DNA of 64,000 nt from Terriglobia bacterium (lineage in GTDB: Bacteria > Acidobacteriota > Terriglobia > 20CM-2-55-15): positions 416,001 to 480,000 of the forward strand of contig CBDAOY010000007.1 of assembly GCA_965198225.1 (NCBI GenBank), read 5' to 3'. The notes under the pieces are model-generated. The model was not told the DNA's origin. It did not search any database and worked only from the letters and a program-made list of their open reading frames with translations. Every line of letters begins with the position of its first letter. Position 1 is the stretch's first letter. Positions 1 to 15,784 of the stretch are shown here, piece after piece. Both the position numbers and the translations under genes were made by a program.

Positions 1-2088
1 CTAGTCTCCTCCGCCCGACGACGACTTGCCGGCCTGACCTTCAAGGTACCTGCTCCACCACGCCAGCTCGTTGATCATCCTGTGAACGTTGTTCCAGTGA
101 CCACGGATTCCGTGAGCCTGACCGGCGTACCGGATCATCTTCGCAGGCACTCCCTGTCGCTTCAGCGCGAAATACATCTGCTCGCCTTCCGGATAGGGAA
201 CGCGCTGGTCCACCTCGCCGTGAACGAAGAGCGTCGGCGTTTTCACGTTGCCGGCGTGGGTCAGCGGCGATTGCTTGATCAACCGTTCCAGCGCCTCTTC
301 TTCCCACGGCGTCCCGAAGAATTCGGTCTCCTTCGTGCGGTAGATGTCGGCGGTACCGTAGTCGCTGACCCAGTTCGTGATGCCGGCGCCGGAAATGGCC
401 GCCGCGAAGTGGTCGGGGTACTGCGTGATCACCCAGTTGGTCATGAACCCGCCGTAAGAGTGGCCGGTGTGGCCGACGCGACCGGTGTCGATCGGGTATC
501 GTTCCAGGACGTAATCGACGCCGGACACGACATCCTGCCCGTCCTTGTTGCCCCATTCGCCCCACGTCGCCCACTTGAATGCCTCACCGTATCCGGTCGA
601 GCTCCTGAAATTCGTGTCCAGGACGAAGTAGCCGTTCGCCGCGAAAAACTGCTTCTTGAAGTTGAACCTGTAGCCCACGGCGGAGTGAGGACCCCCGTGA
701 CTGAAGACAATGAGGGGGTAGGGCCCCGTCGCACGGTCGTAGCCGGAAGGGAAGGTCAGCCAGCCCTCGATCGATGTCCCGTCGTAGCTCGGCCATTCCA
801 GCCGTTCCGTCCGGCTGAAGGCGACCTCCTCCAGGATGTTGTCGTGAACGGCGCTGAGCCGGCGTTCGTTCCCTCCGTCCAGGTCCGCAGCATAGATTTC
901 GGGAGGGGACTCATGAAGGCCGACGGTATAGACGATCGTGCGGAAATTCTCGTCGATTGACACCCCGCCGAGACGACGCTCGCCGCGGGTCACCTGCTCC
1001 ACGTCCCCGTCGGGAACTGACACTCGGAACACGTGGGTCTGCCCGCCGATTCCGGCCGTGAAGTACATAAACCGACCTTCCGGCGCCCATCGCGCAGGGC
1101 CCGGTTGGAGATCCCAGTTCGCGGTGAGGTTGATCGGGGCTCCGCCTTCGACGGGCCGAACGAACAGGTCGCGGGGGCCGCCATGATCGAGCTTGTCCCG
1201 GATGACCAGGTCCGTCCCGTAGCTGCGGGCGTATGAAATGAATCGACCGTCGGGGGAGAAGGCAACGCTGTTGTGAACGTAGAGGTCGTCGGTGAGCTGG
1301 GTGACCGTTCCCTCCGTCGACACCGTGTAGAGATCCGCCCGTCCGTAGCTGAGCTCGTTCCGCCAGTCCGAGTCCGCGGTAAAAGCCAGGAGGTCGCCCC
1401 TCGGATGCCAGCTCACGTTGGCGGGACGCAGGTCTTCGCTGAGCAGGACTCTTGCTTCACCGCCCTCAACAGGCTGGATGGCGATTTCGGTGGCCGCGCG
1501 AGCGGTTGGGTCTGGTGAAGGGAATTCCGCTCCATCCCGCTGGAAGTCCTTCCAGTCGAAGATGGCCCCTTCGAACCGCTCCTGGTGGCGGCGCTCGAAA
1601 TCAGTGGCATATGTCGGCTCCAATATCGGCCGCGGCTTGTCTCTGAGGGTTGCGAACCACTTTCCGTCCGGGCTCAGGACCGATCGTTCGTGCGGTCCGG
1701 CTGTTCTGGCGGGCAGAGCCGTGGGATCTGCCGGATCCAGAGTCCACCACCCGCCGTCGGCCGCGTACCGGAGCAGGTTGTCAGCGATCCATCGGGCTCC
1801 TGAAATGTCCTTTCCGTAGTGGACGACTCGTCGCGGCTGTGCCGACGCATCGGCGGGCACGATGCGTGTCTCGACCCGGGTGCTATTGTCCTCCTCGATT
1901 CTAGTGGACACCGTAAAAGCCACCCAATCACCGTCTGGTGAGATCTGAGGGTTCCCGACCGACTGGATTCGATAGAAGTCCTCGATGGCCAGCGGCCTGC
2001 TCTGGGCGGCTGCGAAGCCAACTGCGAGGGTCGAAACAAGAATCAGCGCGAGAAAAACGTGAAGCTGGAAAGACCTTGAGCGTGCCAT
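1..2088 (-). CDS. Exported S9-family peptidase (PD40/TolB-like propeller plus alpha/beta hydrolase)
   Basis: GHSYGG nucleophile motif, HGGP, HGEVDQRV, signal peptide; ATG at 2088 preceded by GGAGG. Confidence 0.9.
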   Translation of the reverse strand: MARSRSFQLHVFLALILVSTLAVGFAAAQSRPLAIEDFYRIQSVGNPQISPDGDWVAFTVSTRIEEDNSTRVETRIVPADASAQPRRVVHYGKDISGARWIADNLLRYAADGGWWTLDPADPTALPARTAGPHERSVLSPDGKWFATLRDKPRPILEPTYATDFERRHQERFEGAIFDWKDFQRDGAEFPSPDPTARAATEIAIQPVEGGEARVLLSEDLRPANVSWHPRGDLLAFTADSDWRNELSYGRADLYTVSTEGTVTQLTDDLYVHNSVAFSPDGRFISYARSYGTDLVIRDKLDHGGPRDLFVRPVEGGAPINLTANWDLQPGPARWAPEGRFMYFTAGIGGQTHVFRVSVPDGDVEQVTRGERRLGGVSIDENFRTIVYTVGLHESPPEIYAADLDGGNERRLSAVHDNILEEVAFSRTERLEWPSYDGTSIEGWLTFPSGYDRATGPYPLIVFSHGGPHSAVGYRFNFKKQFFAANGYFVLDTNFRSSTGYGEAFKWATWGEWGNKDGQDVVSGVDYVLERYPIDTGRVGHTGHSYGGFMTNWVITQYPDHFAAAISGAGITNWVSDYGTADIYRTKETEFFGTPWEEEALERLIKQSPLTHAGNVKTPTLFVHGEVDQRVPYPEGEQMYFALKRQGVPAKMIRYAGQAHGIRGHWNNVHRMINELAWWSRYLEGQAGKSSSGGGD

Positions 2089-2140
2089 CAGGACCTCCAC
2101 TTACGAAAAGTTTTGTCGAACCCTACTCATGATGCCCTGT

Positions 2141-3019
2141 TCACGGGCACGGATCTTCGCCTTCGACCGGGGCGACGCCGGAGGGCAGGAAGCGACACGG
2201 GTCGGCCGACTCGAGCGAGACGCGCGTTCCGGTTCGGATGAGGCTCGTGGCGCTCGGACCCTGGAAGAAGCTGTATCCCTCGCGGGTTCCCATCCATGCC
2301 AGCGGACCGCCCAGTTTACGGCCGGCCCCGAGGGTTTCGTCCTTGATCTTCGTCACGAGCGCCTCGTAGTCCGGGTCGCCCTGCCGTCGTCCGGTAAAAC
2401 TGCCGAGGTCGGAGCTTGCCGCGAAGACGACATCGACACCGGGGACGCCGGCGATCTCTTCGGCGATCTCCACACCGGCCGGCGATTCGATCATGGCAAC
2501 GATCATGATGTTGTCGTTCGCCGCCCTGCGGTAGTCGTTGCCCCAGATCGCACGGTATTGCCCACCGCCCTGGCTCCTTTTGCCGATGGGCGGGTATTTG
2601 GCGAAGGTGACTGCATTCTGCACTTTCTCGACGCTGTCGACCATCGGGATGATGATTCCGAGGGCTCCGATGTCGGTAGCCTTCTGGATGTCTCCTTCTG
2701 TTGCGTCGGGTACCCGGATGAATGGGATCGCCGGGGTGTCCTTGCAGGCCCAGATCATGCGTGCTGCATCGGTGTAGGTCAATGGGCTGTGTTGCATTTC
2801 GATCCAGAGGAAATCGAACCCGGCGCCAGCCATCGCGCAATAGATATCCGGGTCGGCCGTGGAGACCGTTCCCCCGACAACCTGTTTGCCCTCGGCCAGT
2901 TTCTGCTTCACCGTATTGAACATTCGCACCTGACCGGTCTGTTGCCCCTGAGCTTCGAACGCGGCGGTGGCGGTCAAGCCGACAGCCCACAGTAGCGCGA
3001 ACAATGTTACGTGCTTCAT
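2141..3019 (-). CDS. HpcH/HpaI aldolase family protein with signal peptide
   Basis: GFDFLWIEMQHSP, MIESPAGV and DVVFAASSDL motifs. Confidence 0.85.
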   Translation of the reverse strand: MKHVTLFALLWAVGLTATAAFEAQGQQTGQVRMFNTVKQKLAEGKQVVGGTVSTADPDIYCAMAGAGFDFLWIEMQHSPLTYTDAARMIWACKDTPAIPFIRVPDATEGDIQKATDIGALGIIIPMVDSVEKVQNAVTFAKYPPIGKRSQGGGQYRAIWGNDYRRAANDNIMIVAMIESPAGVEIAEEIAGVPGVDVVFAASSDLGSFTGRRQGDPDYEALVTKIKDETLGAGRKLGGPLAWMGTREGYSFFQGPSATSLIRTGTRVSLESADPCRFLPSGVAPVEGEDPCP

Positions 3020-3134
3020 CGGTACAACCTCTCTGTTGGAAGGATAATTGCGTCGAGAATCGTACCATTGTGGGGCGTTGGGCGGAAGGAACTGCGTGCG
3101 TCGATACGCTCTGCGAGCGCACAGACCGGGAGGC

Positions 3135-3167
3135 GTGTAGGTGCGGTCTCATAGAGCGCACCTACAC
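3135..3167. repeat. REP-like GTAG palindrome (fused, internally deleted copy)
   Basis: GTGTAGGTGCGGTCTCATAGAGCGCACCTACAC. Confidence 0.75.
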
Positions 3168-3241
3168 CCGATCCCAATCGCTTTGTGTCGGCCACTACAA
3201 TTGGGGTGCGGGAACAAACGATCTGGCGGGAGGTAGACTGA

Positions 3242-3577
3242 ATGTGGATCATGGTCGCGGGACCTTACAAATCGGGAGCCCGGAGTCGGGAAGAAGCAGA
3301 CGCCAATCTGAGGACGCTGAACGATGCCGCCTACGCGCTGTTTTTGAAAGGACACGTTCCGGTCATAGGCGTCAACATGGCCCTGCCGGTCATCGAGGCG
3401 GCCGGCATGGATCGCTACGAGGAGATCATGATGCCGATTTCGCTGTCGCTGGCCGAACGTTGTGACGCGATTCTGAGAGTCGGTGGCCACTCGCGCGGCG
3501 CTGATGAAGAAGTCGCCGTGTTGGCGGGGAAAGGTCGGCCGGTTTTCCGGCGAGTGGAAGAAGTCCCTCAGGCATGA
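3242..3577 (+). CDS. DUF4406-like / nucleoside deoxyribosyltransferase-fold small protein
   Basis: IMVAGPY start and CDAILRVGGHSRGADEE motif. Confidence 0.7.
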   Translation: MWIMVAGPYKSGARSREEADANLRTLNDAAYALFLKGHVPVIGVNMALPVIEAAGMDRYEEIMMPISLSLAERCDAILRVGGHSRGADEEVAVLAGKGRPVFRRVEEVPQA

Positions 3578-3616
3578 CAACTGACTACCGACTGAGCCCG
3601 GAACTGACTACTGACT

Positions 3617-4268
3617 ACTGACTACTTCCCCCCATCGCTTACTCTATTCTCATATGGCCGCGGATCACTTCAGTTCAGAGATCAAATCCGGAGCGCTCCT
3701 CATACTTCTTGCCCTGGCTCTTCCAACGGACCTGCCTGGTGCCAACACGCAGACCGTGGGGCCCGCAGCGTCGCCAGGGCCGGGGGTCCCGGAATGTCCG
3801 CGGCTTTCTCTTTTCATGGCTCAGGACGACTGGCTCGAACGGCTTGTCAATCCGATCTACACCACCACCGAAGAGGTGGATCAGGCGGTCCGGGAACGCG
3901 GGCGCATGCTGGAGTGTCTCGATTCGGTCGGACCGGGAGGTCCTAAATCTGTCGGACACTACTGACTACCGACAACTGACAACTGACTACTGACGAACTG
4001 ACTACTTCCCCCCATCGCTTACTCTATTCTCATATGGCCGCGGATCACTTCAGTTCAGAGATCAAATCCGGAGCGCTCCTCATACTTCTTGCCCTGGCTC
4101 TTCCAACGGACCTGCCTGGTGCCAACACGCAGACCGTGGGGCCCGCAGCGTCGCCAGGGCCGGGGGTCCCGGAATGTCCGCGGCTTTCTCTTTTCATGGC
4201 TCAGGACGACTGGCTCGAACGGCTTGTCAATCCGATCTACACCACCACCGAAGAGGTGGATCAGGCGG
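3617..4268 (+). repeat. 272-bp direct repeat (3617-3888 = 3997-4268)
   Basis: Identical sequence at a 380-bp offset; both copies begin in ACTGACT heptamer tracts. Confidence 0.95.
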
Positions 4269-5394
4269 CCGGGCGTTTTTGTCCGATCAGCTACGCATGG
4301 TGCGCTACCATCTGGCCCTGTTCCTGTCGTTCGCCGACGCCGGAACGGGTTCTCCAGAGCTTGTCGATCTCTCCACGACCCCGGACCCGGCGGTGCGACG
4401 ACTGAGGGAAGACCTTGGCCTGCTTCCGCCCTCGGGTGTCATTCTGATTCGATACTTCATCGATCCCGAGCAAGTGCCCGACCCCATTCGCGACGCTTTC
4501 GAAAACCCACAGACTCAGGCGGTCACGCTGTGGTGCCGCTACGTTGCCGTTTTGACGTCCACCCGGAGAGACCTCAGCCAAACCCCGACCGCAACCGATG
4601 GCCTGCAATCGACCTTCTCCCACGAACTCGTGCATGCGTTCCTCAACGCCAGACTCGGCTCCGGGATCATCGAGAGCGGATTCCCATCGTGGTTTCACGA
4701 GGGCATGGCCATTCATTTCAGTGGCAGCGGGCGTGGACACGTGACGCTGGACCCCTCCACGGGTGGCTTCACACGAACCGAGCCGACCGCGCAATACGAG
4801 CGATACCAGAGGACCTTTCTCTACCTGGAATCGAGCCTGGGCCATTCCGGTTTCAATCAGGCTTTGCATCTCGCAGTTGAAAACGCCGATCCCTCGTTGT
4901 TGATAGCCGCCGCTGACGAATCTTCATACGACGAGCTTGTCGCGACGGCCGAGCTGTGGTGGCGGTGGTGGCCCCTTCCAGTCGCGCTGGTTCGAGGGTG
5001 GGCACTCTGGTGGCTGGCGGGGTTGATCGTGATGTCGATCGGAGCGGGATGGTCGTTGTGGAGGCGATGGCAGCCCGCTGTTCCCCGATCGGCCCTCGAA
5101 GTCGAACTGAACTCGGATCTGCTGGCTGCGATCCAGAGCGGGGATGCGGGAACCGTTCGATACCTTATCCGCTCCGGAGCGCATGCCAACGCGCAGGATG
5201 GTGACGGGAGGTCTGCCCTCATGTGGGCGGTTTGGATGGACCAGTTTCAGGCGGTGGAGGCTCTGGTCAATGCCGGGGCGAAGGCCACGCGTGAGATCCG
5301 GGGCGTCGCGGAGTTGCGGGGCTGTTCTCCGGACATCGTCCGTGTGCTTGCCGATGGGGTCGCCAGGGACGGGGAGGAGTGGAGCGATGATTGA
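4034..5394 (+). pseudogene. Signal-peptide gluzincin-like metallopeptidase (peptidase MA-like) with TM segment and C-terminal ankyrin repeats, frameshifted near 4268
   Basis: HELVH...PSWFHEGMA zinc motif, GAHANAQDGDGRSALMWA ankyrin; the N-terminus is in another frame and duplicated upstream. Confidence 0.7.
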
Positions 5395-5471
5395 CCCCGC
5401 CGGTCCCTTCCAGTTACATTTGCGCGCAAGATGACGTTCCATCAAGGTCGCGGCAAGATCGAGTGCCCACG

Positions 5472-6785
5472 ATGACCACCACCGAACCCACCGTCACGAC
5501 CCGGGCATCTGCAGGCGACCCGTCTCTGATCTCGACCGGCAGCTGGGTTATCTACGACCTTGCCAATACGATTTTCTCTTTCAACATCGTGTCGTTCTAT
5601 TTCGTGCTGTGGGTGACGAACGTTATGGGGGGAACGGATGCCGACTACGGCTACGCAAACTCCATCTCGATGGCCGTTGTTTTCTTCCTGTCCCCTGTGC
5701 TGGGCGCCCTGACCGATCAGGCTCCGAAACGAATGCCTTTCCTCGTCATCTCCACCGTGATCTGCGTGGCCCTGACGTTTCTACTCGGTTCCGGTGGATT
5801 GACGTTTTCGCTCGTGTTTTTCGCCTGCGCCAACGTCGCCTACCTGGCCGGCCTCCAGTTCTACGACGCTCTGTTGCCCGAGGTCAGCACCGAGGCGACT
5901 CGGGGCCGGGTCAGCGGTGTGGGCGTCGGCGTGGGCTACCTGGGTTCGTTCATCGGGCTCGCAGTCGGAGCGATGATTCTGGGCCTGGAAATCGACTCTC
6001 TGCCGGTGGCGGAGCAGGCGGTTCGCTACCGCACGGTTTTCCTTCTGACGGGATTCCTGTTTCTGACGTTTGCGATCCCCTGCTTTTTGTTCGTACAGGA
6101 GCGAGGACGTCCGGGGCGCCGGTTCTCCAGCTCTTCGGTGGGCGCGGCATTCCACCAGGTTGCGACGACGTTCCGACACTCCCGGCGGTATCCCGGCCTG
6201 CTGCGCTTCCTTATCGGCCGGATGTTCTACACCGACGCCGTCAACACCGTCATCATCTTCATGGGCGTGTACGTCGTCAACGAGGTAGGTTTCGGGACAG
6301 TGATGGCTCAGGTGGTGCTCCTGGTTGCTATCCTCTTCGCCGTCGTCGGTGGTCTCGTTTGGGGACGAATCGTCGATCGAATCGGCCCGAAACGCTCGCT
6401 GACGATCGTGCTGCGACTGTGGATGGTCGTGTTCAGCTGGACCGCCCTGGTCGGGTTCCTGCCCGTGCCGAGCTGGACGTTCTGGCCCGTGCCGGTCCTG
6501 GCGGGTATCGCGCTGGGCGGGACCTGGACGGCCGATCGTCCCTATATGCTGCGTCTGACGCCACCCGCGCGAGTCGGCGAGTTTTACGGCCTCTACGGGA
6601 TGGTCGGCCGTTTTGCGGCGATTCTCGGACCCGCTCTCTGGGGCCTGATCGTCAACACACTGGGTTTGGGGCGACCGGTCGCGGTGACGACATTGTTGGT
6701 CGCCATCCTGATCAGCTACTTCATCCTCCGTCCCGTTTCCGACGAACGTAGAGACTGGCCCGCGGAAGAACGAATCCCGGCCTGA
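5472..6785 (+). CDS. MFS transporter (UMF1/ATG22-like)
   Basis: SWVIYDLANT, YDALLPEVS, GEFYGLY; about 12 hydrophobic segments. Confidence 0.85.
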   Translation: MTTTEPTVTTRASAGDPSLISTGSWVIYDLANTIFSFNIVSFYFVLWVTNVMGGTDADYGYANSISMAVVFFLSPVLGALTDQAPKRMPFLVISTVICVALTFLLGSGGLTFSLVFFACANVAYLAGLQFYDALLPEVSTEATRGRVSGVGVGVGYLGSFIGLAVGAMILGLEIDSLPVAEQAVRYRTVFLLTGFLFLTFAIPCFLFVQERGRPGRRFSSSSVGAAFHQVATTFRHSRRYPGLLRFLIGRMFYTDAVNTVIIFMGVYVVNEVGFGTVMAQVVLLVAILFAVVGGLVWGRIVDRIGPKRSLTIVLRLWMVVFSWTALVGFLPVPSWTFWPVPVLAGIALGGTWTADRPYMLRLTPPARVGEFYGLYGMVGRFAAILGPALWGLIVNTLGLGRPVAVTTLLVAILISYFILRPVSDERRDWPAEERIPA

Positions 6786-6854
6786 GTTTCCGTCCTTTTG
6801 CCCGAATTTCATGGGACGGTCCGGGGCGAGCCTGCTATCGTCGAATCGATGTTG

Positions 6855-7177
6855 TATCGAGTCAGGCTGCCCGAGCCTTCTATTACCTCGGCTCCGCGCT
6901 ATACAAGCTCGACCATTTGGAATACGCCGAAACGAGCCTCGAGTGGTCGCTCGGCCATGACGAAGTGATCCCGGACGCGCGACTGATGCTGGTCAACATC
7001 TACATGAAGCAGCGCCGGTACCGCGAAGCCGCCGATCAACTGACAGTCTACCTGGTAGAGTTTCCGGACAGTCCTCAACGGAAGGGTGTCGAAAAGATGC
7101 TGGACGACATCCGCAAGGTCCTGCAGCAGTCGCCCGGACAATCGCAGTCCTGTGTCTTCTGCAGTCGGGAAGAATAA
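6855..7177 (+). pseudogene. C-terminal TPR-protein fragment
   Basis: AFYYLGSALYKL...ARLMLVNIYMKQRRYREA TPR pattern; no convincing start. Confidence 0.55.
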
Positions 7178-7191
7178 TCCGTCGGAAGGGC

Positions 7192-7685
7192 AAAAAAAAT
7201 GGAAAGGGGCCAACTGTCCGCTTGCTCTCGCCACTAGTTGCTCGAGCACGGGACTGATTCTCCGGCGAGCCCTCGATCGCAGGGCTGATCATGATTCGAT
7301 CGTGAGTTGCCCCACTTTCTCTTCGCGGTCCGATCAACTCCCTTCAGGCTTTGCGAGTTGCCCCGCGCCGCCGTCCGGAGGCTGATTCAAGCTCCGTTCG
7401 GTCCACGAGTTGCCCCGCTTCCCTCCCTTTGCTTGACCTTCAAACTCTGACTGAGACGCGAGTTGCCCCGCTCCTCGTCCAGGGTTTGAGTCAGACTCTG
7501 CTCGGTCTGCGAGTTGCCCCGCATTCCGCTCAGGGTCTGATTCAGACTCTTCTCGATTTGCGAGTTGCCCCGCTCCTCGTTCAGGATCTGAGTCGGTCTC
7601 TGGTCGGCCTGCGAGTTGCCCCGCATTCCGTTCAGAAACCGTGCCGGGTCGTCAATCTCTAACGATCAGCTAACCCCTTACCGAG
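7192..7685 (-). ncRNA. Candidate structured ncRNA, copy 1, with 7 tandem ~51-nt GNRA-hairpin modules
   Basis: GCGGG-GCAA-CTCGC hairpins (plus-strand starts 7302, 7353, 7405, 7458, 7509, 7560, 7611); 5'/3' closing helix 7667-7679 with 7204-7216; U8 tract at 7192-7199; paralog at 11.1-11.4 kb. Confidence 0.7.
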
Positions 7686-7735
7686 CAGTAGAATCTACCT
7701 TTCTCGGAATCCTGTCAATATAGAAAATTTTGCGC
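7685..7735 (-). promoter_or_regulatory. Sigma70-like promoter for ncRNA copy 1 with overlapping GTAGA-N-TCTAC palindrome
   Basis: TTGACA (7713-7718), N15, TAGATT (7692-7697), AT-rich upstream tract; conserved in copy 2. Spacing is shorter than the canonical 17. Confidence 0.55.
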
Positions 7736-7934
7736 GCCATTGCTCATGTATAGTACTGAATACAAGTAGTTTAACGTGTATGCGAATATCTTGCGTCGAT
7801 CACAGAACGGCGCGGTGGGAAATGTTGCAATTTTCGCTATTTGAGGTGCGCGAAGTGCGCCCTGCGCTCGGTTATGGTCAGACCTCCTCGCCTAACGCCT
7901 CACCTGTCTTTTGGGCTGCCTGTTCGGGGTTCCA

Positions 7935-8050
7935 CGAACTATGCAGGCGTCCCAAAGGGTCGCGATGGCGGGACACAAGACCCGGTCCGTTTTGACGGGT
8001 ACAACATCGTCAACGAGGACGACATTCCGGAGGCCGGACAAGCCGTCGCA
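7935..8050 (+). pseudogene. Tyrosine recombinase (phage integrase) C-terminal remnant
   Basis: Frameshifted AGVP-RVAMAGHKTRSV-FDGYNIVNEDDI, resembling the integrase GH...Y box II. Confidence 0.75.
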
Positions 8051-8142
8051 GCCTCCTTCACCGATCCATGGGCACAGTTCCCGCACAGATCGCAGAAATC
8101 CATGAGGAAAGGAAAATAGCCGAGATGCAAAGTATTTGAGAC

Positions 8143-8198
8143 TGGATGCCGAAAGGGGGTTTCGAACCCCAAGTCCCTGGCGGACAATAGATCCTGAA
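8143..8198 (-). pseudogene. Degenerate 3' fragment of tRNA-Leu(CAG), att-site-like
   Basis: Minus strand reads TTCAGGATCT...GGGGTTCGAAACCCCCTTTCGGCATCCA; no D-arm or 5' half. Confidence 0.6.
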
Positions 8199-8355
8199 GG
8201 CGTCCTGTGAAAGGGTTGGTTTGTTGATGAAAGCTTAGTCTTTCAACTCATCCACGGATTCTTAGCCAATGGAAAACGTGAAAAGTTGTGTCAAGTTAAT
8301 TGTGGAGCGGGCAAGAAGCCGGCGGCCCGCGAAGTAACCACCGGCCTCGTTAACC

Positions 8356-10851
8356 TTAGGGTCGGGCCGGGCAGTCATCGGTTGGGAAATACTGCAGGCA
8401 TTCCTGGGCTGTTAAGTCGCGAAATATGCGCGCGCGCGCGCGTTCGAGCAAACTCTCGATTTCGCGTGCCCATATCTTGGCCGTCCCATCCTGGCTCGCG
8501 GTGGCGACTCGCGTCCCGTCCCCGCTGAACGCCACCCCATACACATCGCCGCCGTGGCCGCTCAGGGTCCGCAACTCCTGCCCCGTTGCCGCATCCCATA
8601 TCTTGGCCGTCCCATCGACGCTCGCGGTGGCGACTCGCGTTCCGCCCCCGCTGAACGCCACGCCATACACATCGGTGCCGTGGCCGCTCAGGGTAAGCAA
8701 CTCTTTCCCGGTTGCCGCATCCCATATCTTGGCCGTCCCATCGGCGCTCGCGGTGCTCACCCGCGTCCCGTCCCCGTTGAACGCAACCCCAATCAAAATG
8801 GTGTCGTGGCCGCTCAGGGTAAGCAAGTCCTCCCCGGTTGCTGTATCCCATATCTTGGCAGTCCCATCCTCGCTCGTGGTGGCCACTCGTGTCCCATTCC
8901 CGCTAAACGCCACCGCATACAGATAGGGCTCGTGGCCGCTCAGGGTAAGCAAGTCCTCCCCGGTTGTCGCATCCCATATCTTGGCCGTCCCATCCTGGCT
9001 CGCGGTGGCGACTCGCGTCCCGTCCCCGCTGAACGCCACGCCATACACACCGGCGTCGTGGCCTCTCAGGGTAAGCAACTCTTCCCCGGTTGTCGCATCC
9101 CATATCTTGGCCGTCCCATCCTGGCTCGCGGTGGCGACTCGCGTCCCGTCCCCGCTGAACGCCACGCCATACACACCGGCGTCGTGGCCTCTCAGGGTCC
9201 GCGACTCCTCCCCGGTCGTCGCATCCCATATCTTGGCCGTCCCATCGGCGCCCGCCGTGCCCACCCGCGCCCCGTCCCCGCTGAACGCCACGCCATACAC
9301 ACCGGCGTCGTGGCCGCTCAGGGTCCGCAATTCCTCCCCGGTTGCCGCATCCCAAATCTTGACCGTGCCATCGGCGCTCGTCGTGCCCACCCGCGTCCCG
9401 TCCCCGTTGAACGCCACGCCATACACATCGCCGCCGTGCCCGCTCAGGGTAAGCAACTCCTGCCCGGTTGCCGCATCCCATGTCTTAGCCGTCCCATCGA
9501 CGCTCCCGGTGGTCAGTCGCGTCCCGTCCCCGCTGAACGCCACCCCATACAAAGAGTCTTCGTGGCCGCTCAGGGTCCGCAACTCTTCCCCGGTTGCCGC
9601 ATCCCATATCTTGGCCGTCCGATCGACGCTCGCGGTGGCGACTCGCGTCCCGTCCCCGCTGAACGCCACCCCATACAGATAGTCTTCGTGGCCGCTCAGG
9701 GTAAGCAACTCCTGCCCGGTTGCCGCATCCCAAATCTTGGCCGTCCCATCGACACTCGCGGTGGCGACTCGCGTTCCGCCCCCGCTGAACGCCACGCCAT
9801 ACACATCGGCGTCGTGGCCGCTCAGGGTCCGCAACTCCTGCCCGGTTGCCGCATCCCAAATCTTGGCCGTCCCATCGGCGCTCGCGGTGGCGACTCGCGT
9901 CCCGTCCCCGCTGAACGCCACCCCATACACATCGGCGTCGTGGCCGCTCAGGGTCCGTTCGACAAAAGATGTCGCGACGGCCCGGTAGAGCACGCCTTCT
10001 GCGACCGGAAGTGTATCCCCGCCGAAATTGTGAGTGGCCTGTACCGCATGCACTCCCAAAATGACGCTAAGTTCCGGATCTTGGGACAGGCTGCCTTCCG
10101 CGTAGGCGGCTAGTTCCCGCGCCCGGCCTTCTCGTCCGTTTTCTTCAGCGATGAAGGTCTGTTGAACGGCGTAGGACACGGCAAGAACGGCGAGAACGAG
10201 TGCCGCCATCGCCACTGATAAATAGGCCTTGAGTCGCGAGCGCATCCTCCTCTCTTTTTGCAAATCTTGTTCTAAGTCTTGCCTGGAGGTAACATTCTCG
10301 CTCTCGCGGATTCCACCGATGATGCGCTCGCGAATGTTAGTCCGGATGTCGTCGCGCTCCTGCGAAGACAGGAGTTCCCACTTCCCGGGCTGAACAGGCA
10401 GGCGCTGCGCGTTTGGCCAGCGTGCTTGCACAACGTCGGGTGTCCATCGGGCGCCCTCTCCCGTTGAATCGATAAGAATTGGTGCGACGTGACGGTTGGC
10501 CAACCACCAGTCCAGTTCCTTGTGGACCCAATCGTCCACGCCTCGATTCGGGAAAGCGCCCGGCGAGCACACAAGAAGCATCGCCCGCGCCCGCTGTAGC
10601 GCCGGCTCGTGAACGCGAGTCCAGTCGTCGACAGCGGGAGCCGATTGATCGTAGTAGAGCTCAAGCTCGGGCGGCGCGTCGTATCCATCGGGGATAAAGG
10701 GGAGGGGTTGCCTGTGAAGAGTCTCGTAAAGCCACTCTGCGGCTCCACCTCCGTCGACTTGGCGATAGCAGATGAAGATGTCCCAGGTTGCAGGGGGGCG
10801 TGCGGGTTCACTCCCTTCAGCGCTGGGGTTATTAGTGTGGTCTGCCGACAT
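8356..10851 (-). CDS. TIR domain + TM helix + 12 near-identical WD40 repeats
   Basis: DIFICYR...WVHKEL TIR motifs; hydrophobic VAMAALVLAVLAVSYAV; 42-aa TLSGH...AKIWD repeats. Confidence 0.9.
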   Translation of the reverse strand: MSADHTNNPSAEGSEPARPPATWDIFICYRQVDGGGAAEWLYETLHRQPLPFIPDGYDAPPELELYYDQSAPAVDDWTRVHEPALQRARAMLLVCSPGAFPNRGVDDWVHKELDWWLANRHVAPILIDSTGEGARWTPDVVQARWPNAQRLPVQPGKWELLSSQERDDIRTNIRERIIGGIRESENVTSRQDLEQDLQKERRMRSRLKAYLSVAMAALVLAVLAVSYAVQQTFIAEENGREGRARELAAYAEGSLSQDPELSVILGVHAVQATHNFGGDTLPVAEGVLYRAVATSFVERTLSGHDADVYGVAFSGDGTRVATASADGTAKIWDAATGQELRTLSGHDADVYGVAFSGGGTRVATASVDGTAKIWDAATGQELLTLSGHEDYLYGVAFSGDGTRVATASVDRTAKIWDAATGEELRTLSGHEDSLYGVAFSGDGTRLTTGSVDGTAKTWDAATGQELLTLSGHGGDVYGVAFNGDGTRVGTTSADGTVKIWDAATGEELRTLSGHDAGVYGVAFSGDGARVGTAGADGTAKIWDATTGEESRTLRGHDAGVYGVAFSGDGTRVATASQDGTAKIWDATTGEELLTLRGHDAGVYGVAFSGDGTRVATASQDGTAKIWDATTGEDLLTLSGHEPYLYAVAFSGNGTRVATTSEDGTAKIWDTATGEDLLTLSGHDTILIGVAFNGDGTRVSTASADGTAKIWDAATGKELLTLSGHGTDVYGVAFSGGGTRVATASVDGTAKIWDAATGQELRTLSGHGGDVYGVAFSGDGTRVATASQDGTAKIWAREIESLLERARARIFRDLTAQECLQYFPTDDCPARP
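8470..9958 (-). repeat. 126-bp tandem coding repeats (WD40)
   Basis: Twelve highly similar 126-bp units. Confidence 0.95.
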
Positions 10852-10917
10852 CGATAAGTGTCAGCTTGGGAAACGAACCCCTAACTGTCAATCAATTACT
10901 AGGAGTCAAATCGAGTG

Positions 10918-10979
10918 TGGTTGCTCTAGAGGGACTTCGAATCTCCACAGGATCGCTCCCGACTAGATCCTTAATCTGG
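10918..10979 (-). pseudogene. Degenerate tRNA-Leu-like 3' fragment
   Basis: Minus strand reads CCAGATTAAGGATCTAG, long variable arm, GGAGATTCGAAGTCC...ACCA; 5' half missing. Confidence 0.5.
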
Positions 10980-11077
10980 TTGTTCCATCAAGGTGGAAGC
11001 GCGTTCCGTGGCGGCTGGCCAAGGTTGAAGGCGGGTGAGGGAAGAACGGCCAAGCCTGAGTACCGGGAGCTGAGGGC

Positions 11078-11373
11078 AAAAAAAAAGGAGGGGTCAGCCG
11101 TCGCCGCTCTCGCCACTAGTATGCGTGAGCCCGGAATCGACTCTCCGGCCAGGCCCCCGATCGTCAGAGCCTGTGTCAGACCCTCATCGGTTTTGCGAGT
11201 TGCCCCGCATCCCCTCTTCGGGCCTGCTTCAAACTCCGTCCGGCTTGCGAGTCGCCCCATAAGCCGTCCAGGGCTTGAATCGGCTCCTGATCGCTCTGCG
11301 AGTTACCCCGCAAATCCGTTCAGAAGCCATGCCGGGTCATCAATCTGGTTGCGATCAGCTAACCCCAACCGCG
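11078..11373 (-). ncRNA. Candidate structured ncRNA, copy 2, with 3 GNRA-hairpin modules
   Basis: Hairpins at 11195, 11247, 11298 with loops GCAA, GCGA, GUAA; closing helix 11356-11366 with 11090-11100; U9 tract at 11078-11086. Confidence 0.7.
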
Positions 11374-11423
11374 CAGTAGAATCTACCTTTCTCGGTAGGG
11401 TGTCAATACAGAAAAATTTGCGC
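11373..11423 (-). promoter_or_regulatory. Sigma70-like promoter for ncRNA copy 2
   Basis: TTGACA (11401-11406), N15, TAGATT (11380-11385); 23-nt block identical to copy 1. Confidence 0.55.
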
Positions 11424-11633
11424 TGTTAATATTGATAAAAGTACTGATACTAAATGTGTTAACAGGTGCATGCATTCGCTGCGTCCGGGCTCGTGTCCAC
11501 GACCGTAACAAATTGCAATTTGCCGTTCGAATGCTTCCAAACCGCGTTTTCGGAGGGCCCGAACGCGGGTGTTTCCTGAGATAATGATGGCCAGATGGCG
11601 CAGTTGTTCGGAAACGCTGCGGAGGAGGTCCCT

Positions 11634-12678
11634 GTGCGTATAGGCATTCCAACCGAGATAAAACCGAAAGAAGGTCGAGTTGCGTTGATTCCACCCGCTG
11701 CGGCCGAGCTTGTGCAAGACGGGCATGAAGTGTTGTTGCAGTCGGACGCCGGGGTTGGGACCGGCTACTCTGATCAGGACTACATCGATGTGGGGGTGCG
11801 CATCGTAGCGGACGCGCAGGAAGTTTACGGTGAGGCCCAGATGGTCCTGAAGGTGAAAGAGCCGATCGAGCCGGAGTTCGAACTCCTGAGAGAAGATCAC
11901 CTGTTGTTCTGCTTCCTCCACCTGGCTGCTCTTCCCGAATTGACGCGCGTCCTTCAGAACAAGGGTTTGACGGCGGTGGCCTGGGAGACCGTCGAGGAGC
12001 GGGGGAGACTGCCGATCCTGGCGCCCATGAGTGAGATTGCCGGCCGTCTCGCTGCTTCATCGCCACCACGGAGGACGCGGGCTGATGCTGGGAGGCCTTC
12101 CCTCGTCGGATCGCGGTCACGTGGTGGTGCTGGGAGCGGGCAGCGTCGGCATCAACTCCGCCGAAGTCGCGGCCGCTCTGGGAGCTCGAGTGACGGTGCT
12201 TGCGCGAAGCCGGGAAAGCCACGCCCGCGCAAACGCTCTGGGCCCGAACGTCACCGGCTTGCCTGCTTATAGAGACATGGTTGCGGAGGCTGTCGCGGAT
12301 GCAGACCTGCTGGTGGGTGCGGTGCTGATCCCGGGAGCCCGGGCGCCGAAATCAGTGGATGCCGCGATGGTGCGCAGCATGAAGCCCGGCAGCGTGATCG
12401 TCGACGTGTCCGTCGACCAGGGCGGTTGTGTGGAAACCATTCGCCCGACCACGTATGAAGACCCGACCTACGTCGTCGATGAAGTGGTTCATTTTGGAGT
12501 CACCAACATGCCGGGAGCCGTTCCGCGCACCAGTTCCCAAGCGCTCTCGAGCGCGCTCGTTCCCTACACGTTACGGCTGGCTGGGGAGGGAGGCCTGTCC
12601 GATCCAGCACTGCGTGCAGGGATCAACGTTCAAGCCGGAACAATCGTCCATCCGGCAGTCGCCGAAGCCATGGTTTGA
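11634..12678 (+). pseudogene. ald: Alanine dehydrogenase, frameshifted near 12045-12055
   Basis: RIGIPTEIKPKEGRVAL N-terminus and GAVLIPGARAPK / DQGGCVET / NMPGAVPRTS C-terminus are in different frames. Confidence 0.9.
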
Positions 12679-12694
12679 AGGAGGAGTCTTTTTG

Positions 12695-14050
12695 ATGTCG
12701 AATGCTGCCAAAGCTGAAGTCGAAAAGTTCATGACGGGGTTGATTCGACGAAATCCCGGAGAGACGGAGTTTCATCAGGCTGTTCGAGAGGTTGCCGAAA
12801 GCATGGCGCCCTTCATGATGGAACATCCCGAATACACACGAGCCCGGATCGCCGAGAGGATGACCGAGCCCGACCGCATCATCATGTTTCGTGTGACCTG
12901 GCAGGACGATGCCGGGAGCGTTCGGGCAAACCGGGCCTGGCGGGTTCAGTTCAACAACGCAATCGGTCCATACAAGGGAGGAATGCGATTCCATCCGACG
13001 GTGACACAGAGCGTGCTGAAGTTTCTGGGGTTCGAGCAGGTATTCAAGAACAGTCTCACGGGGCTTCCGATGGGGGCGGCGAAGGGTGGCTCGAACTTCA
13101 ACCCGAAAGGGAAGAGCGAAAGCGAGGTGATGCGGTTCTGCCAGTCGCTGATGACCGAACTGCACCGATACATCGGTGAGGACATTGATGTGCCGGCCGG
13201 TGACATCGGCGTGGGAGCCCGCGAGATCAGCTTCCTGTTTGGACAGTACAAGCGGCTCGAGAACCGGTTTGCAGGGATCCTGACGGGAAAGGGACTTGCT
13301 TTTGGCGGAAGTGCGATTCGTCGCGAATCGACCGGCTACGGGTGCGTCTACTTTATGCAGAACATGCTCGAGACACGAGGGAGTGGCCTCGAAGGGAAGA
13401 CCTGTACTGTTTCCGGATCGGGGAATGTCGCCCTCTATGCGCTCGAGAAACTCATTCACTTCGAGGCCAGGCCGGTTACCGCATCGGATTCGGAGGGATT
13501 CATCCATGACCCCGACGGGATCGACGAAGAGAAACTGGAATGGTTGAAAGATCTGAAGGAAGCGCGCAGGGGGCGTATCCGGGAATACGCCGAGCATTTC
13601 GACGGCTCGACATTCTATGAGGGCCAACGCCCCTGGGGCGTCAAGGTCGACCTGGCTTTCCCCTGCGCGACACAGAACGAACTGGAAATCCAAGACGCCA
13701 AGGAACTCCTTGGAAACGGCATGATCGGCGTCGCTGAAGGAGCCAACATGCCGTGTACTCCTGAAGCCATCCACGCCTTCCTGCGGGCACGGACGCTGGT
13801 CGGACCCGGAAAGGCAGCCAATGCCGGCGGCGTTGCCGTCTCCGGCCTGGAACAAAGCCAGAACGCCCTGCGTATCTCGTGGTCCCGCGAGGAAGTCGAC
13901 ACCCGCCTTCAACAGATCATGCGGGACATCCACGCCAGATGCGTGCGCTACGGTTACGAGAAAGACGGCTACATCAACTACGTCAACGGTGCGAACATTG
14001 CCGGTTTCGTGAAGGTCGCCGATGCCATGTTGGCCTATGGCGTCGTGTAG
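12695..14050 (+). CDS. gdhA: Glutamate dehydrogenase (GdhA type)
   Basis: GPYKGGMRFHP, DVPAGDIGVG, KAANAGGVAVSGLE; GGAGG RBS. Confidence 0.95.
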   Translation: MSNAAKAEVEKFMTGLIRRNPGETEFHQAVREVAESMAPFMMEHPEYTRARIAERMTEPDRIIMFRVTWQDDAGSVRANRAWRVQFNNAIGPYKGGMRFHPTVTQSVLKFLGFEQVFKNSLTGLPMGAAKGGSNFNPKGKSESEVMRFCQSLMTELHRYIGEDIDVPAGDIGVGAREISFLFGQYKRLENRFAGILTGKGLAFGGSAIRRESTGYGCVYFMQNMLETRGSGLEGKTCTVSGSGNVALYALEKLIHFEARPVTASDSEGFIHDPDGIDEEKLEWLKDLKEARRGRIREYAEHFDGSTFYEGQRPWGVKVDLAFPCATQNELEIQDAKELLGNGMIGVAEGANMPCTPEAIHAFLRARTLVGPGKAANAGGVAVSGLEQSQNALRISWSREEVDTRLQQIMRDIHARCVRYGYEKDGYINYVNGANIAGFVKVADAMLAYGVV

Positions 14051-14134
14051 GTGCGGTCATACAAGCTGTGAACGAATGCCATCTGTTTGAGAATCGGGTG
14101 GCGGGGCTTTTCATGAAGAACCTGCGATCCTCAA

Positions 14135-14207
14135 GTGTAGGTGCGCTCTATGAGCGCACAAATGCCCGCGGGACCACAAGTTGTGCGGTCATAGACCGCA
14201 CCTACAC
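14135..14207. repeat. REP-like paired palindrome
   Basis: GTGTAGGTGCGCTCTATGAGCGCAC...GTGCGGTCATAGACCGCACCTACAC. Confidence 0.85.
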
Positions 14208-14387
14208 TCGACCGACGTTTCGAATACTCCTCAATCAAGCAAGTTGATGGAACCTCCGTCCATCAATTCATCCTGCGTTTCAACGTATTGCTCGCTACTT
14301 CTGTAACTTAGCGGCTTTCCCTCATTCTGGAACTCCACATGCAACATGGTTTTGCACTCCACAAGTGTGTACCAGCGAGGTGACGAC

Positions 14388-15041: not shown

Positions 15042-15132
15042 CCACCCGTCCCAGGGAATAAATCGGACATCAACTGGAATATGTTGAGTAAGGCCGGCGA
15101 GCGCGCGCTGCCGGCAGACGGGAGAGACAAGA

Positions 15133-15678: not shown

Positions 15679-15784
15679 GGTTTGACACCCTCGGAATGAA
15701 ACAGCATTGGCTCGGGCGTCACTCCTAGAATCCGACGCCGTTCGGCCGAACGCTGGTACCGATAGCCCTGTTACAGGTAACTAG

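What the first reader, a model, noticed from the sequence alone, without database searches (positions are those of the whole stretch)
7192..7720. Candidate new large ncRNA carrying a tandem array of seven ~51-nt GNRA-hairpin modules
Seen: on the minus strand the 14-mer GCGGG-GCAA-CTCGC recurs 7 times at spacings of 51, 52, 53, 51, 51, 51 nt. It folds as a 5-bp stem (one G-U) capped by a GNRA tetraloop. One copy has a compensatory change (GTGGG-GCAA-CTCAC). The ~37-nt linkers are related to each other (GAGnnTGAnTCAg core), and several form a second hairpin, e.g. 7371-7401 CCG-AAC-GGAG...CTCC-GGA-CGG. The array sits between a TTGACA/TAGATT promoter-like block and a U8 tract. Inference: a ~490-nt multivalent structured RNA, either a protein sponge/scaffold (conceptually like CsrB, but with GNRA instead of GGA loops) or a precursor cut into ~51-nt units. 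I do not recognise it as RNase P, tmRNA, SRP, 6S or CRISPR.
Basis: partly seen in the sequence, partly recalled or inferred. Interest (0 to 1): 0.92.

Follow-up and report, generated by a model that had tools for sequence, protein, structure and literature searches.

The report
Abundant new RNA with multiplied hairpin arm
The repeats are real and belong to a very abundant, previously undescribed bacterial non-coding RNA whose long hairpin arm has been copied seven times in a row, which makes it a natural case of an RNA that changes how many identical docking tips it displays.

Summary
Seven GYGGGGCAACTCRY hairpin tips lie on the minus strand at the stated spacings.

- **The unit.** Each is a ~50-nt imperfect hairpin capped by a GNRA loop. 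The "linkers" are its lower stem.
- **A second gene.** A paralogue with three modules lies at 11078-11371.
- **The family.** Both are expanded members of a ~200-nt structured RNA family absent from Rfam 15. It has 1-3 genes per genome and was found only in the organism's own family: 12 of 34 genomes, against 0 of 131 and 0 of 150 genomes searched outside it. Covariation is strong: 93.8% of cells paired, and 47 of 62 pairs changed on both sides.
- **Normal members** carry one arm. Only this genome carries arrays.
- **Two other loops** hold self-complementary hexamers that switch between palindromes, the signature of symmetric kissing loops.
- **Expression.** Sponge metatranscriptome contigs cover only the gene, at word depths in the thousands.

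Function is untested. My best guess is a self-associating, multivalent scaffold or decoy whose tips are docking sites. An analogous large array RNA exists in Acidobacteriaceae.

The parts
7192..7685 (-). Copy A: predicted transcript of the expanded RNA (about 490 nt). The 5' end near 7682-7688 is inferred from the -10 box. The 3' end is at the U8 run.
   Evidence: Sequence. MFE fold with closing helix, 7 hairpins, P3 and P4: -224.2 kcal/mol, z -7.44. RNA contigs cover bins 7229-7698 only.
7722..7735 (-). Conserved block just upstream of the -35 box (GCGCAAA-TTTC type). Inferred to be an UP-like or activator site.
   Evidence: Shared by copy A, copy B, L038 and the relatives' genes.
7713..7718 (-). 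-35 box TTGACA
   Evidence: the same box stands before copy B and before the homologues.
   Evidence: the same hexamer at the same spacing stands before the canonical copy L038. Not called by the consensus scan.
7667..7682 (-). 5' strand of the closing helix; pairs with 7201-7216
   Evidence: MFE and centroid. The equivalent helix is 97.3% paired with 10 of 12 pairs changed on both sides in the family alignment.
7652..7657 (-). GAUUGA, 5' strand of an inner helix; pairs with UCAGUC at 7252-7257
   Evidence: the same helix can be drawn in copy B by hand.
7643..7647 (-). CCGGC, 5' strand of the junction helix; pairs with GCCGG at 7262-7266
   Evidence: corresponds to CGGC/GCCG in the canonical RNAs.
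7282..7644 (-). Array of seven ~50-nt hairpin modules (A1 7591-7644, A2 7540-7593, A3 7489-7542, A4 7438-7491, A5 7385-7438, A6 7333-7386, A7 7282-7335). Each has an outer stem, internal loops, a 3-bp middle stem, and a 5-6-bp apical stem with a GCAA loop.
   Evidence: Each unit folds on its own at -12.1 to -30.9 kcal/mol. Pair counts over the 10 modules: 83.3% paired against 26-40% when slid, and 11 of 18 pairs changed on both sides.
7302..7624 (-). The seven apical tips GYGGGGCAACTCRY (starts 7302, 7353, 7405, 7458, 7509, 7560, 7611)
7268..7286 (-). P3 hairpin AGCCC/GGGCU with a 9-nt loop holding the palindrome CGAUCG (7274-7279)
   Evidence: the homologous loop holds a palindrome of 6 nt or more in 22 of 22 canonical RNAs.
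7224..7247 (-). P4-like hairpin whose loop holds the palindrome ACUAGU (7233-7238); GCUCGAGC lies beside it
   Evidence: ACUAGU is shared with copy B (11115-11120).
7201..7216 (-). 3' strand of the closing helix
7192..7199 (-). U8 run at the 3' end (inferred terminator tail)
   Evidence: the consensus scan called no terminator here.
11078..11371 (-). Copy B: paralogous gene (about 294 nt) with three modules (B1 11278-11331 loop GUAA, B2 11227-11280 loop GCGA, B3 11175-11228 loop GCAA), P3 11151-11172 (CGAUCG 11158-11163), P4 11106-11130 (ACUAGU 11115-11120) and U9 11078-11086
   Evidence: 85% identical to copy A over the 5' domain.
11378..11423 (-). Copy B promoter block: upstream conserved block 11410-11423, -35 TTGACA 11401-11406, -10 GATTCT 11378-11383

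Best explanation
The window holds two paralogous genes, A (seven modules) and B (three modules), for a very abundant structured non-coding RNA.

The RNA belongs to a family restricted to one lineage. Its normal form is about 200 nt. The 5' and 3' ends pair to close a multi-helix junction that carries three elements:
- a ~20-bp imperfect arm capped by a GNRA tetraloop, with an almost fixed tip GGGGCAACYC;
- hairpin P3, with a 9-nt loop built as two bases, a 6-nt palindrome, then a purine;
- hairpin P4, with a second palindromic loop.

In this organism the whole arm was duplicated in tandem as a 51-nt unit, so one transcript displays 7 or 3 identical tips.

Shown here: the repeats, the fold, the family, the copy-number change, and the presence of the RNA in RNA libraries at very high depth.

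Inferred: the tip is a docking site for a trans-acting partner, most likely a protein but possibly an RNA receptor. The number of arms sets the valency, as repeat number does in protein-sequestering RNAs. The palindromic loops let the RNA pair with itself and its paralogues through symmetric kissing loops. On this reading the RNA works as a self-associating multivalent scaffold or decoy.
For: - Repeats are far above chance.
- Module fold, over the 10 modules: 83.3% of cells paired against 26-40% when slid, 11 of 18 pairs changed on both sides, and 0 of 500 shuffles reach the covariation score.
- Selection acts on each module. The three pairs next to the loop are invariant in 10 of 10 modules and all 10 loops are GNRA (GCAA 8, GUAA 1, GCGA 1). 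The rest of each module has drifted to 42-79% identity.
- Family fold, over 22 canonical RNAs from 11 genomes: 93.8% paired, 47 of 62 pairs changed on both sides, slid controls 26-49%. That alignment was fitted to the model.
- Only G000 has arrays among the 34 family genomes searched with the module model.
- P3 loop palindromes: 22 of 22 (CGATCG 8, AGATCT 13, CGGCCG 1).
- P4 loop: CCATGG 19 of 22, CCGCGG and AACGTT once each, and ACTAGT in A and B. Chance is 7-9% per 9-nt loop and 18% per 16-mer.
- Central dinucleotides change AU to GC, CG or UA. Adjacent bases cannot pair within one chain. This is the argument used for OLE L9.3, which switches GGCC/GAUC/AGCU (PMC12286853, passages read).
- Abundance: in two RNA libraries of one study, contigs cover bins 7229-7698 at summed word depth 230-16,364 and nothing in the other 20 bins. 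A third library from another study covers 7182-7604 at 1.6-6. A DNA-like run is flat at 12-22 over all 30 bins.
- An unrelated-looking large RNA in Acidobacteriaceae MAGs carries arrays of the same tip at a 49-50-nt period: 19 loci with 5 or more strict hairpins, among the 117 loci returned.
Against: - No partner is known, and nothing here tests binding or oligomerisation.
- The tip is not enriched elsewhere in the genome: 41 GGGGCAACYC against 12-71 (25-40 for most) for nine control words. So no set of competing mRNA sites is visible.
- Normal family members have a single arm.
- The tip is not universal. Two of 22 canonical RNAs have it inverted (loop UUGC), two have GUAU, and three have a different short arm. 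L063 lacks the arm.
- Palindrome switches are few events among related sequences. Two P4 loops are imperfect (L034, L052).
- The outer pair of each palindrome could also close an intramolecular 4-nt loop.
- Contig depth is a poor measure of expression and cannot give the strand or the ends (tool notes).
- The consensus scan did not call the promoter or a terminator.
- The later modules A6 and A7 pair poorly in the common register (4 of 9 and 5 of 9), although each folds on its own.
Confidence: 0.5

Rival explanations
1. RNA-only architecture. The family assembles into dimers, rings or lattices purely through RNA-RNA contacts: two symmetric kissing loops plus GNRA tips docking into helices of neighbouring copies. 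No protein ligand is involved, and the extra arms add RNA-RNA contacts or decorate the assembly.
For: - Palindrome-switching loops.
- GNRA loops are classical tertiary-contact elements (recalled).
- Very high depth in RNA libraries.
- Precedents: OLE, ROOL and GOLLD (PMC12286853, passages); RNAs under 200 nt such as manA that assemble by kissing loops and an intermolecular GNRA loop-receptor contact (preprint 10.64898/2026.07.01.735769, abstract and passages).
Against: - No receptor motif was identified.
- A closed, defined assembly would not be expected to tolerate 1, 3 or 7 arms at the same junction.
- A and B have lost the A-rich junction strand (GAAAAAGA) that is conserved in the canonical RNAs.
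- Nothing here tests assembly.
Confidence: 0.2
2. Precursor. The array is cut, for example by RNase III, into ~51-nt hairpin units that act individually.
For: Each module is a ~20-bp hairpin, about the minimal length of a bacterial RNase III substrate (recalled). Units are separated by only about 3 nt. RNA contigs over the array are short, 56-264 nt (table 8), though repeats alone would break an assembly in the same way.
Against: - Canonical homologues have one arm embedded in a larger conserved fold, which argues that the whole RNA is the functional unit.
- Contigs cannot show ends, and no table of starts or ends was obtained (table 6: none).
- Internal loops interrupt the helices.
Confidence: 0.12
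3. Neutral expansion. The family RNA is functional, but the extra modules are unselected products of replication slippage or unequal recombination in this one species.
For: Arrays were seen only in G000 among the 34 family genomes. The freshest units (A1-A3) are 68-79% identical and the later units are more degenerate. One RNA contig suggests two extra modules (the 'goes back 103' joint).
Against: - All 10 tips are kept, with GNRA loops and invariant apical pairs, while the lower stems diverged with compensatory changes.
- The order-preserving matches B1~A1 (76%), B2~A4 (70%) and B3~A6 (56%) imply that an array of at least 3 modules predates the A/B duplication and was kept in both genes.
- The DNA-like run X2 carries the same array without joints.
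Confidence: 0.12
4. Defence-linked RNA. Copy B, lying about 230 nt upstream of a TIR-WD40 gene on the same strand, is a repeat RNA that controls that gene in the manner of a type III toxin-antitoxin system, with copy A as a second dose.
For: Gene order B, then the TIR_2 + WD40 gene (8356-10851), then A, all on the minus strand. TIR_2 scores 31.2 bits against a cut-off of 28. WD40 repeats are confirmed.
Against: - The N-terminal TIR part was not found in the 3 sister genomes, which all carry the RNA (0 of 3).
- I saw no gene recurring beside the RNA in the ORF lists of 14 homologous loci; these ORFs were read by eye and not run against Pfam.
- Copy A has no downstream gene on its strand.
- Both RNAs have their own promoter block and U run.
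- No ToxN-like nuclease is present.
Confidence: 0.03
5. Repeat peptide or DNA-level repeat. The 51-nt period (17 codons) encodes a repeat peptide (ORF 7387-7626, 79 aa), or the repeats act as DNA.
For: An ORF reads modules 1-5 in one frame. The period is divisible by 3 for 4 of the 6 spacings.
Against: - Spacings of 52 and 53 break the frame.
- Copy B reads the tip in another frame.
- Neither ORF has a Pfam hit.
- The longest sense ORFs in the 22 homologues range from 15 to 67 codons without consistency.
- Changes are compensatory for RNA pairing.
- The invariant G-U pair works on one strand only.
- RNA contigs are confined to the gene.
Confidence: 0.01

Closest known systems
CsrB/RsmZ/CrcZ-type protein-sequestering sRNAs (features recalled, not read here)
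   Same: A stand-alone, abundant sRNA with its own promoter and terminator. It repeats one short structured element many times, and the repeat number differs between paralogues and species.
   Different: The repeated element is a ~50-nt GNRA-capped hairpin, not a GGA or A-rich motif. No Rfam Csr/Rsm model matches. The ancestral form has one element inside a larger conserved fold. No partner is known.
OLE, ROOL and GOLLD RNAs, and small assembling RNAs such as manA (PMC12286853 passages; preprint 10.64898/2026.07.01.735769 abstract and passages)
   Same: Orphan bacterial structured RNAs. Loop sequences switch between palindromes, which in OLE and GOLLD marks symmetric intermolecular kissing loops. 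GNRA contacts are used between chains in manA.
   Different: No sequence or model similarity. Much narrower distribution (one bacterial family). Oligomerisation is untested here. Tandem multiplication of an arm is not mentioned in the passages I read.
ToxI and other type III antitoxin RNAs (PMC3401426 seen only in a search listing; features recalled)
   Same: Tandem direct repeats of a few tens of nucleotides in a non-coding transcript, followed by a terminator. Copy B stands upstream of a possible effector gene.
   Different: No ToxN-type nuclease gene is present. Homologues have a single unit and I saw no gene recurring beside them. The units are long hairpins, not pseudoknot-forming 34-36-nt repeats.
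HIV-1 dimerisation initiation site loop (recalled)
   Same: A 9-nt hairpin loop built as two bases, a 6-nt palindrome, then a purine. This is the layout of P3 in 19 of the 22 canonical RNAs and in copy A; L043 and L044 have three bases before the palindrome, and L052 has one base on each side.
   Different: A viral genomic RNA element. The resemblance is a lead only.
raiA motif RNA (PMC12968392, abstract start in a search listing only)
   Same: An orphan bacterial RNA family whose cellular abundance that abstract compares with rRNA and tRNA.
   Different: A different fold and different phyla. raiA is expected to be in Rfam (recalled) and no Rfam family matches here.
Large hairpin-array RNA of Acidobacteriaceae/Terracidiphilus MAGs, found here (e.g. 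L137 4690-5600 minus strand, L102 1640-2650 minus strand)
   Same: Same apical tip (GGG-GNRA-CYC, often with the same G-U pair). Period of 49-50 nt, own terminator, same bacterial class. One conserved 3' hexamer switches AUGCAU to AUCGAU in L102.
   Different: 10 or more hairpins as the normal state, and different conserved 5' and 3' domains. Not matched by the family model R3 and only weakly by the module model R1. No Rfam match in the four such loci checked.

Membership tests
   MFE folds of A and B reproduce all of these elements. R3 gives partial matches to B (43.6 bits) and A (37.4 bits). The module model R1, built from A and B, found the relatives' single arms at 34-49 bits. The promoter block is shared.
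New ~200-nt GNRA-arm RNA family | Single arm and an A-rich junction strand GAAAAAGA | tested here: not met
   A has 7 arms and B has 3. The A-rich strand is absent from both. They are therefore an expanded, diverged subtype.
CsrB/Rsm family | Many GGA motifs exposed in hairpin loops or between hairpins | tested here: not met
   All 10 module loops are GNRA. A GGA next to the apical stem is present in some modules only and is not conserved in homologues.
CsrB/Rsm family | Match to the curated covariance models | tested here: not met
   cmscan at E<=10 over 6500-8500 gives no such row. Nine loci of homologues give none at E<=1.
CsrB/Rsm family | Binds CsrA/RsmA | not testable with these tools
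   Needs a binding assay.
Type III toxin-antitoxin (ToxIN-like) | Repeat RNA directly upstream of a ToxN/AbiQ-type endoribonuclease gene | tested here: not met
   Downstream of B is a TIR_2 + WD40 protein. Downstream of A there are only convergent genes.
Type III toxin-antitoxin (ToxIN-like) | Repeat array and toxin conserved together in relatives | tested here: not met
   Relatives have single-arm RNAs. The TIR part is found in 0 of 3 sister genomes.
CRISPR array | Near-identical repeats separated by unrelated spacers | tested here: not met
   The stretches between tips are related to each other and pair across the tip.
CRISPR array | Adjacent cas genes | tested here: inconclusive
   The four neighbouring ORFs tested are an MFS transporter, a TPR fragment, TIR-WD40 and alanine dehydrogenase. 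The rest of the window was not screened.
6S RNA / SRP RNA | Match to RF00013 / RF00169 | tested here: not met
   Both are found elsewhere in the genome above their cut-offs: C6:230181-230371 at 64.4 bits and C8:355310-355407 at 78.9 bits. Neither matches this locus.
Acido-1 / Acido-Lenti-1 motifs (RF01686, RF01687; PMC2864571 passages) | Match to the Rfam models | tested here: not met
   No row. The paper's additional files could not be opened (supplements are closed).
RNAs with symmetric intermolecular kissing loops (a functional class, not a homology family) | A hairpin loop whose self-complementary core switches between different palindromes, including the central dinucleotide | tested here: met
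   P3: CGAUCG, AGAUCU, CGGCCG. P4: CCAUGG, CCGCGG, AACGUU, ACUAGU.
RNAs with symmetric intermolecular kissing loops | Forms homo-oligomers | not testable with these tools
   Needs native gels, SEC-MALS or cryo-EM.

The most novel reading that the evidence does not exclude
The family is a self-assembling RNA. Its two palindromic loops join copies and paralogues head-to-head and tail-to-tail. The GNRA-tipped arm is a docking module read by a still unknown partner shared across the class. In this sponge-associated species, and independently in the much larger Acidobacteriaceae array RNA, evolution tuned valency by multiplying that arm. This would be a modular 'brush' RNA with no described counterpart.
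Probability: 0.3. Interest if true: 0.9.

Novelty: new variant of a known kind. Interest (0 to 1): 0.8.

Why it matters
- It adds an undescribed structured RNA family, absent from Rfam 15 and not found in three full-text searches. The family has strong covariation support and very high depth in symbiont metatranscriptomes.
- It offers a rare natural experiment. The same scaffold carries 1, 3 or 7 copies of one arm, so the role of valency can be tested directly by comparing natural paralogues.
- Its two palindrome-switching loops make it a cheap candidate for the new field of natural RNA quaternary structure: about 200 nt, easy to transcribe.
- A second, larger RNA in Acidobacteriaceae uses arrays of the same tip. 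This suggests an unrecognised RNA-recognition system in a phylum where, to my knowledge, few regulatory RNAs have been studied.

Tried and rejected
**Searches that found nothing useful**
- BLASTN of copy B found nothing in 39 relatives. Homologues appeared only with covariance models.
- The R1 matches in G019 (L017, L022) are unrelated GC-rich palindromes that match on both strands. I dropped them from all counts of the family.
I gave 80 of the 117 to R1 and all 117 to a regular-expression count. Loci with spacings of 18, 27 or 36 nt look like coding repeats. The Chloroflexota loci L097 and L079 are other kinds of repeat. None of these was used.
- The metagenome scan for the 3' domain of A/B returned one locus, a chance match inside a coding region. 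So no further A/B-type genes were obtained.
- R3 found nothing in 5 named Acidobacteriota genomes.
- Taxonomy from the protein atlas was uninformative.

**Readings considered and rejected**
- CsrA-type GGA sites.
- An SRP domain IV mimic, which rested on a resemblance recalled from memory and was not supported by any model.
- A retron ncRNA, since no reverse transcriptase is nearby in the ORF lists.
- An anti-start-codon seed for CCAUGG, since the variants lack CAU.

**Items left open**
- Parts of the gene without RNA contigs in X10 and X13 (7192-7228), and the X10 contig that runs on unlike beyond 7674, were not interpreted.
- The joints 'goes back 103' (X17) and 'skips 45' (X13) rest on single contigs.

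**Papers: what I saw**
- PMC12286853: passages.
- Preprint 10.64898/2026.07.01.735769: abstract, outline and passages.
- PMC2864571: passages.
- PMC12968392 and PMC3401426: search listings only.
- The properties of CsrB, ToxI, RNase III and the HIV DIS loop are recalled.
- Supplements were closed. The additional files of PMC2864571 on Acido-1 could bear on the claim that this is a different motif. That claim rests on Rfam alone.
Full report
**1. The observation**

On the minus strand the tip GYGGGGCAACTCRY occurs seven times between 7302 and 7624, at spacings of 51, 52, 53, 51, 51 and 51. The window holds 9 matches to the degenerate pattern against 0.71 expected, and none of 100 shuffles reaches 9. 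Tandem Repeats Finder reports only the youngest part: 7458-7624, period 51, 80% matches.

The generic consensus scan called neither a promoter nor a terminator there. The two remaining matches, at 11195 and 11298, led to a second gene.

**2. Anatomy of the module**

Each unit folds on its own into a ~50-nt hairpin:
- an outer stem of about 9 bp;
- a purine-rich internal loop;
- a 3-bp middle stem;
- a second internal loop;
- a 5-6-bp apical stem closed by a GNRA loop.

Units are separated by about 3 nt.

On an alignment of the 10 modules of the window:
- 83.3% of cells pair, against 26-40% when the partner is slid;
- 11 of 18 pairs show changes on both sides;
- no shuffle out of 500 reaches the covariation score.

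The three pairs next to the loop, including a G-U, are invariant in 10 of 10 modules. The loops are GCAA (8), GUAA (1) and GCGA (1).

The alternative register, in which the 3' half of one unit pairs with the 5' half of the next, fits less well: 42 of 64 cells against 74 of 90. It is also impossible in the single-arm homologues.

**3. A second gene, and the whole transcript**

Copy B (about 11078-11371, minus strand) shares several features with copy A:
- an upstream block, the -35 TTGACA and a -10 GATTCT at 17 nt;
- the 5' domain, 85% identical;
- P3 with CGAUCG;
- a P4-like hairpin with ACUAGU;
- the closing helix and a U run.

Copy B has three modules. The MFE folds of both full transcripts give the same architecture. 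Copy A folds at -224.2 kcal/mol (z -7.44) on the minus strand, against -187.1 (z -3.10) on the plus strand.

Module identities are B1~A1 76%, B2~A4 70% and B3~A6 56%. This suggests an ancestor with at least three arms, followed by further duplication in A.

**4. Not coding, not a known RNA**

An ORF (7387-7626) reads five modules in frame. The evidence against a coding role is:
- the 52- and 53-nt spacings break the frame;
- copy B reads the tip in another frame;
- neither ORF matches Pfam;
- the homologues have no consistent ORF.

Rfam 15 gives no credible match at E<=10 on the locus and none at E<=1 on nine loci of homologues. 6S and SRP RNAs are found elsewhere in the genome.

**5. The family**

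A covariance model of the module (R1) found single-module matches in all three sister genomes and in one genome of another genus. Reading those loci showed a ~200-nt RNA with the same promoter block. Models of the full RNA (R2, R3) then gave the distribution:

| Group searched | Result |
|---|---|
| Own family (= own order), all 34 genomes held | 12 genomes, 1-3 genes each |
| Other families of the class | 0 of 131 |
| Phylum sample | 0 of 150 |

G000 itself also has one canonical single-arm gene, at C6:895852-896056.

On 22 canonical RNAs, 93.8% of cells pair, 47 of 62 pairs change on both sides, and slid controls give 26-49%. That alignment was fitted to the model, which favours it. The RNAalifold structure from seven sequences was derived independently of the later fifteen.

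Among the 34 genomes, only G000 has more than one arm per gene.

**6. Palindromic loops**

The P3 loop holds a 6-nt or longer palindrome in 22 of 22 canonical RNAs: CGATCG 8, AGATCT 13, CGGCCG 1. L063 also has CGGCCG.

The P4 loop holds:
- CCATGG in 19 of 22;
- CCGCGG in the genome's own canonical copy;
- AACGTT in L055;
- ACTAGT in A and B;
- imperfect versions in L034 and L052.

Chance is 7-9% for a 9-nt loop and 18% for a 16-mer.

The switches include the central dinucleotide (AU, GC, CG, UA). That dinucleotide cannot pair within one chain. Exactly this argument supported the symmetric kissing loops of OLE and GOLLD (PMC12286853, passages). Small RNAs that assemble through kissing loops and GNRA-receptor contacts have since been reported (preprint).

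This remains an inference. The events are few and the sequences are related.

**7. Expression**

Of 22 listed runs, 20 hold at least part of the stretch, and 8 are on record as RNA. I laid four:
- In two sponge metatranscriptomes from one study, contigs cover only bins 7229-7698. Summed word depths are 230-16,364, and the 20 flanking bins have none.
- A library from another study covers 7182-7604 at depth 1.6-6.
- A DNA-like run is flat at 12-22 over all 30 bins. It may be the source sample.

The flanks thus serve as the silent control that the tool asks for. Contigs cannot give the strand, the ends or a true expression level. The minus strand is inferred from the G-U pairs, the GNRA loops, the promoter, the U run and the folding asymmetry.

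**8. Context**

Between B and A lies a TIR_2 + WD40 gene. Its TIR part is not found in the three sister genomes. I saw no gene recurring beside the RNA in the ORF lists of 14 homologous loci; these ORFs were read by eye and not run against Pfam. The tip is not enriched elsewhere in the genome. I therefore treat the RNA as an independent trans-acting gene.

**9. An analogous RNA**

The global scan for two adjacent tips turned up 19 loci in Acidobacteriaceae/Terracidiphilus MAGs, each with 5-11 strict tips at a 49-50-nt period. These loci share conserved 5' and 3' domains and a strong terminator.
- A 711-nt stretch of one folds at z -14.97.
- Rfam has no match in the four such loci checked, and R3 has none.
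- Its conserved block hits 2 of 22 genomes of a family labelled 'same class' as G000.

**10. Verdict**

It is an expanded member of a new, abundant structured RNA family.
- What it is: confident, about 0.9.
- How it works (a multivalent, self-associating scaffold or decoy whose tips dock a partner): my best guess, about 0.5 for the whole statement.
- Live rivals: RNA-only assembly, processing into units, and neutral expansion.

Noticed in passing
L137 4690-5600 (-), L102 1640-2650 (-), and 17 further loci among L065-L179: A large (roughly 0.9-1 kb) conserved RNA in Acidobacteriaceae/Terracidiphilus MAGs carries 10 or more GNRA-capped hairpins at a 49-50-nt period. It has conserved 5' and 3' domains and a perfect terminator. 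No Rfam match in the four loci checked. A conserved 3' hexamer is AUGCAU in most loci and AUCGAU in L102, again a palindrome switch.
   Followed up: partly
L038 1551-1593 (G000 C6, canonical copy) and L055: In 2 of 22 canonical RNAs the apical tip reads GGGUUGCCCC, the reverse complement of GGGGCAACCC. The hairpin tip looks inverted at the DNA level and the loop is UUGC instead of GNRA.
   Followed up: partly
window 8356-10851 (-): An 831-aa protein with an N-terminal TIR_2 domain and about 12 near-identical WD40 repeats lies between the two RNA genes. Its TIR part was not found in the three sister genomes, so it is probably a recent insertion or a species-specific gene.
   Followed up: partly
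window 11595-12678 (+): Alanine dehydrogenase appears split over two overlapping frames (11595-12272 with AlaDh_PNT_N, then 12031-12678). This could be a frameshift, a pseudogene or an assembly error.
   Followed up: no
L033 1174-1503 (-), L034, L013 about 1700-1850: In the sister genomes one paralogue of the RNA is followed, after its own TTTACA/TAGGAT promoter-like block, by a small gene. Its product starts MEDNRMDPKIEGLEL and, in L033, ends in a Gly/His-rich tail.
   Followed up: no
L017 and L022 (G019 C12): GC-rich perfect palindromes of about 55 nt, flanked by other inverted repeats, match the module model on both strands. They are probably REP-like elements unrelated to the RNA family.
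   Followed up: partly
L097 2690-2880 (+) and L079 1900-2400 (-): Chloroflexota MAGs hold other tandem repeats that contain GGGGCAAC. L097 has 49-nt units with a GGGGCAACC/GGTTGCCCC palindrome after a gene end. L079 has 60-nt-class units next to a masked stretch.
   Followed up: no
L136 7569-7664 and L068 5193-5288 (+): A TPP riboswitch (64.3 and 63.5 bits) lies roughly 0.5-1.3 kb from the Acidobacteriaceae array RNA, on the opposite strand, in two MAGs. This is probably coincidental synteny.
   Followed up: no
window 7289 (table 4): Three of the four runs laid (X13, X17, X2) carry 7 extra bases (GGCAGAC on the plus strand) after 7289, between the last module and P3. X10 has other 7-base insertions nearby. 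The window's strain, or its assembly, differs there.
   Followed up: no
window 7722-7800 and 11410-11500 (-): Similarity between the two genes extends about 100 nt upstream of the -35 box and includes small palindromes (AGTACT, GTTAAC). These are possible regulator sites.
   Followed up: no
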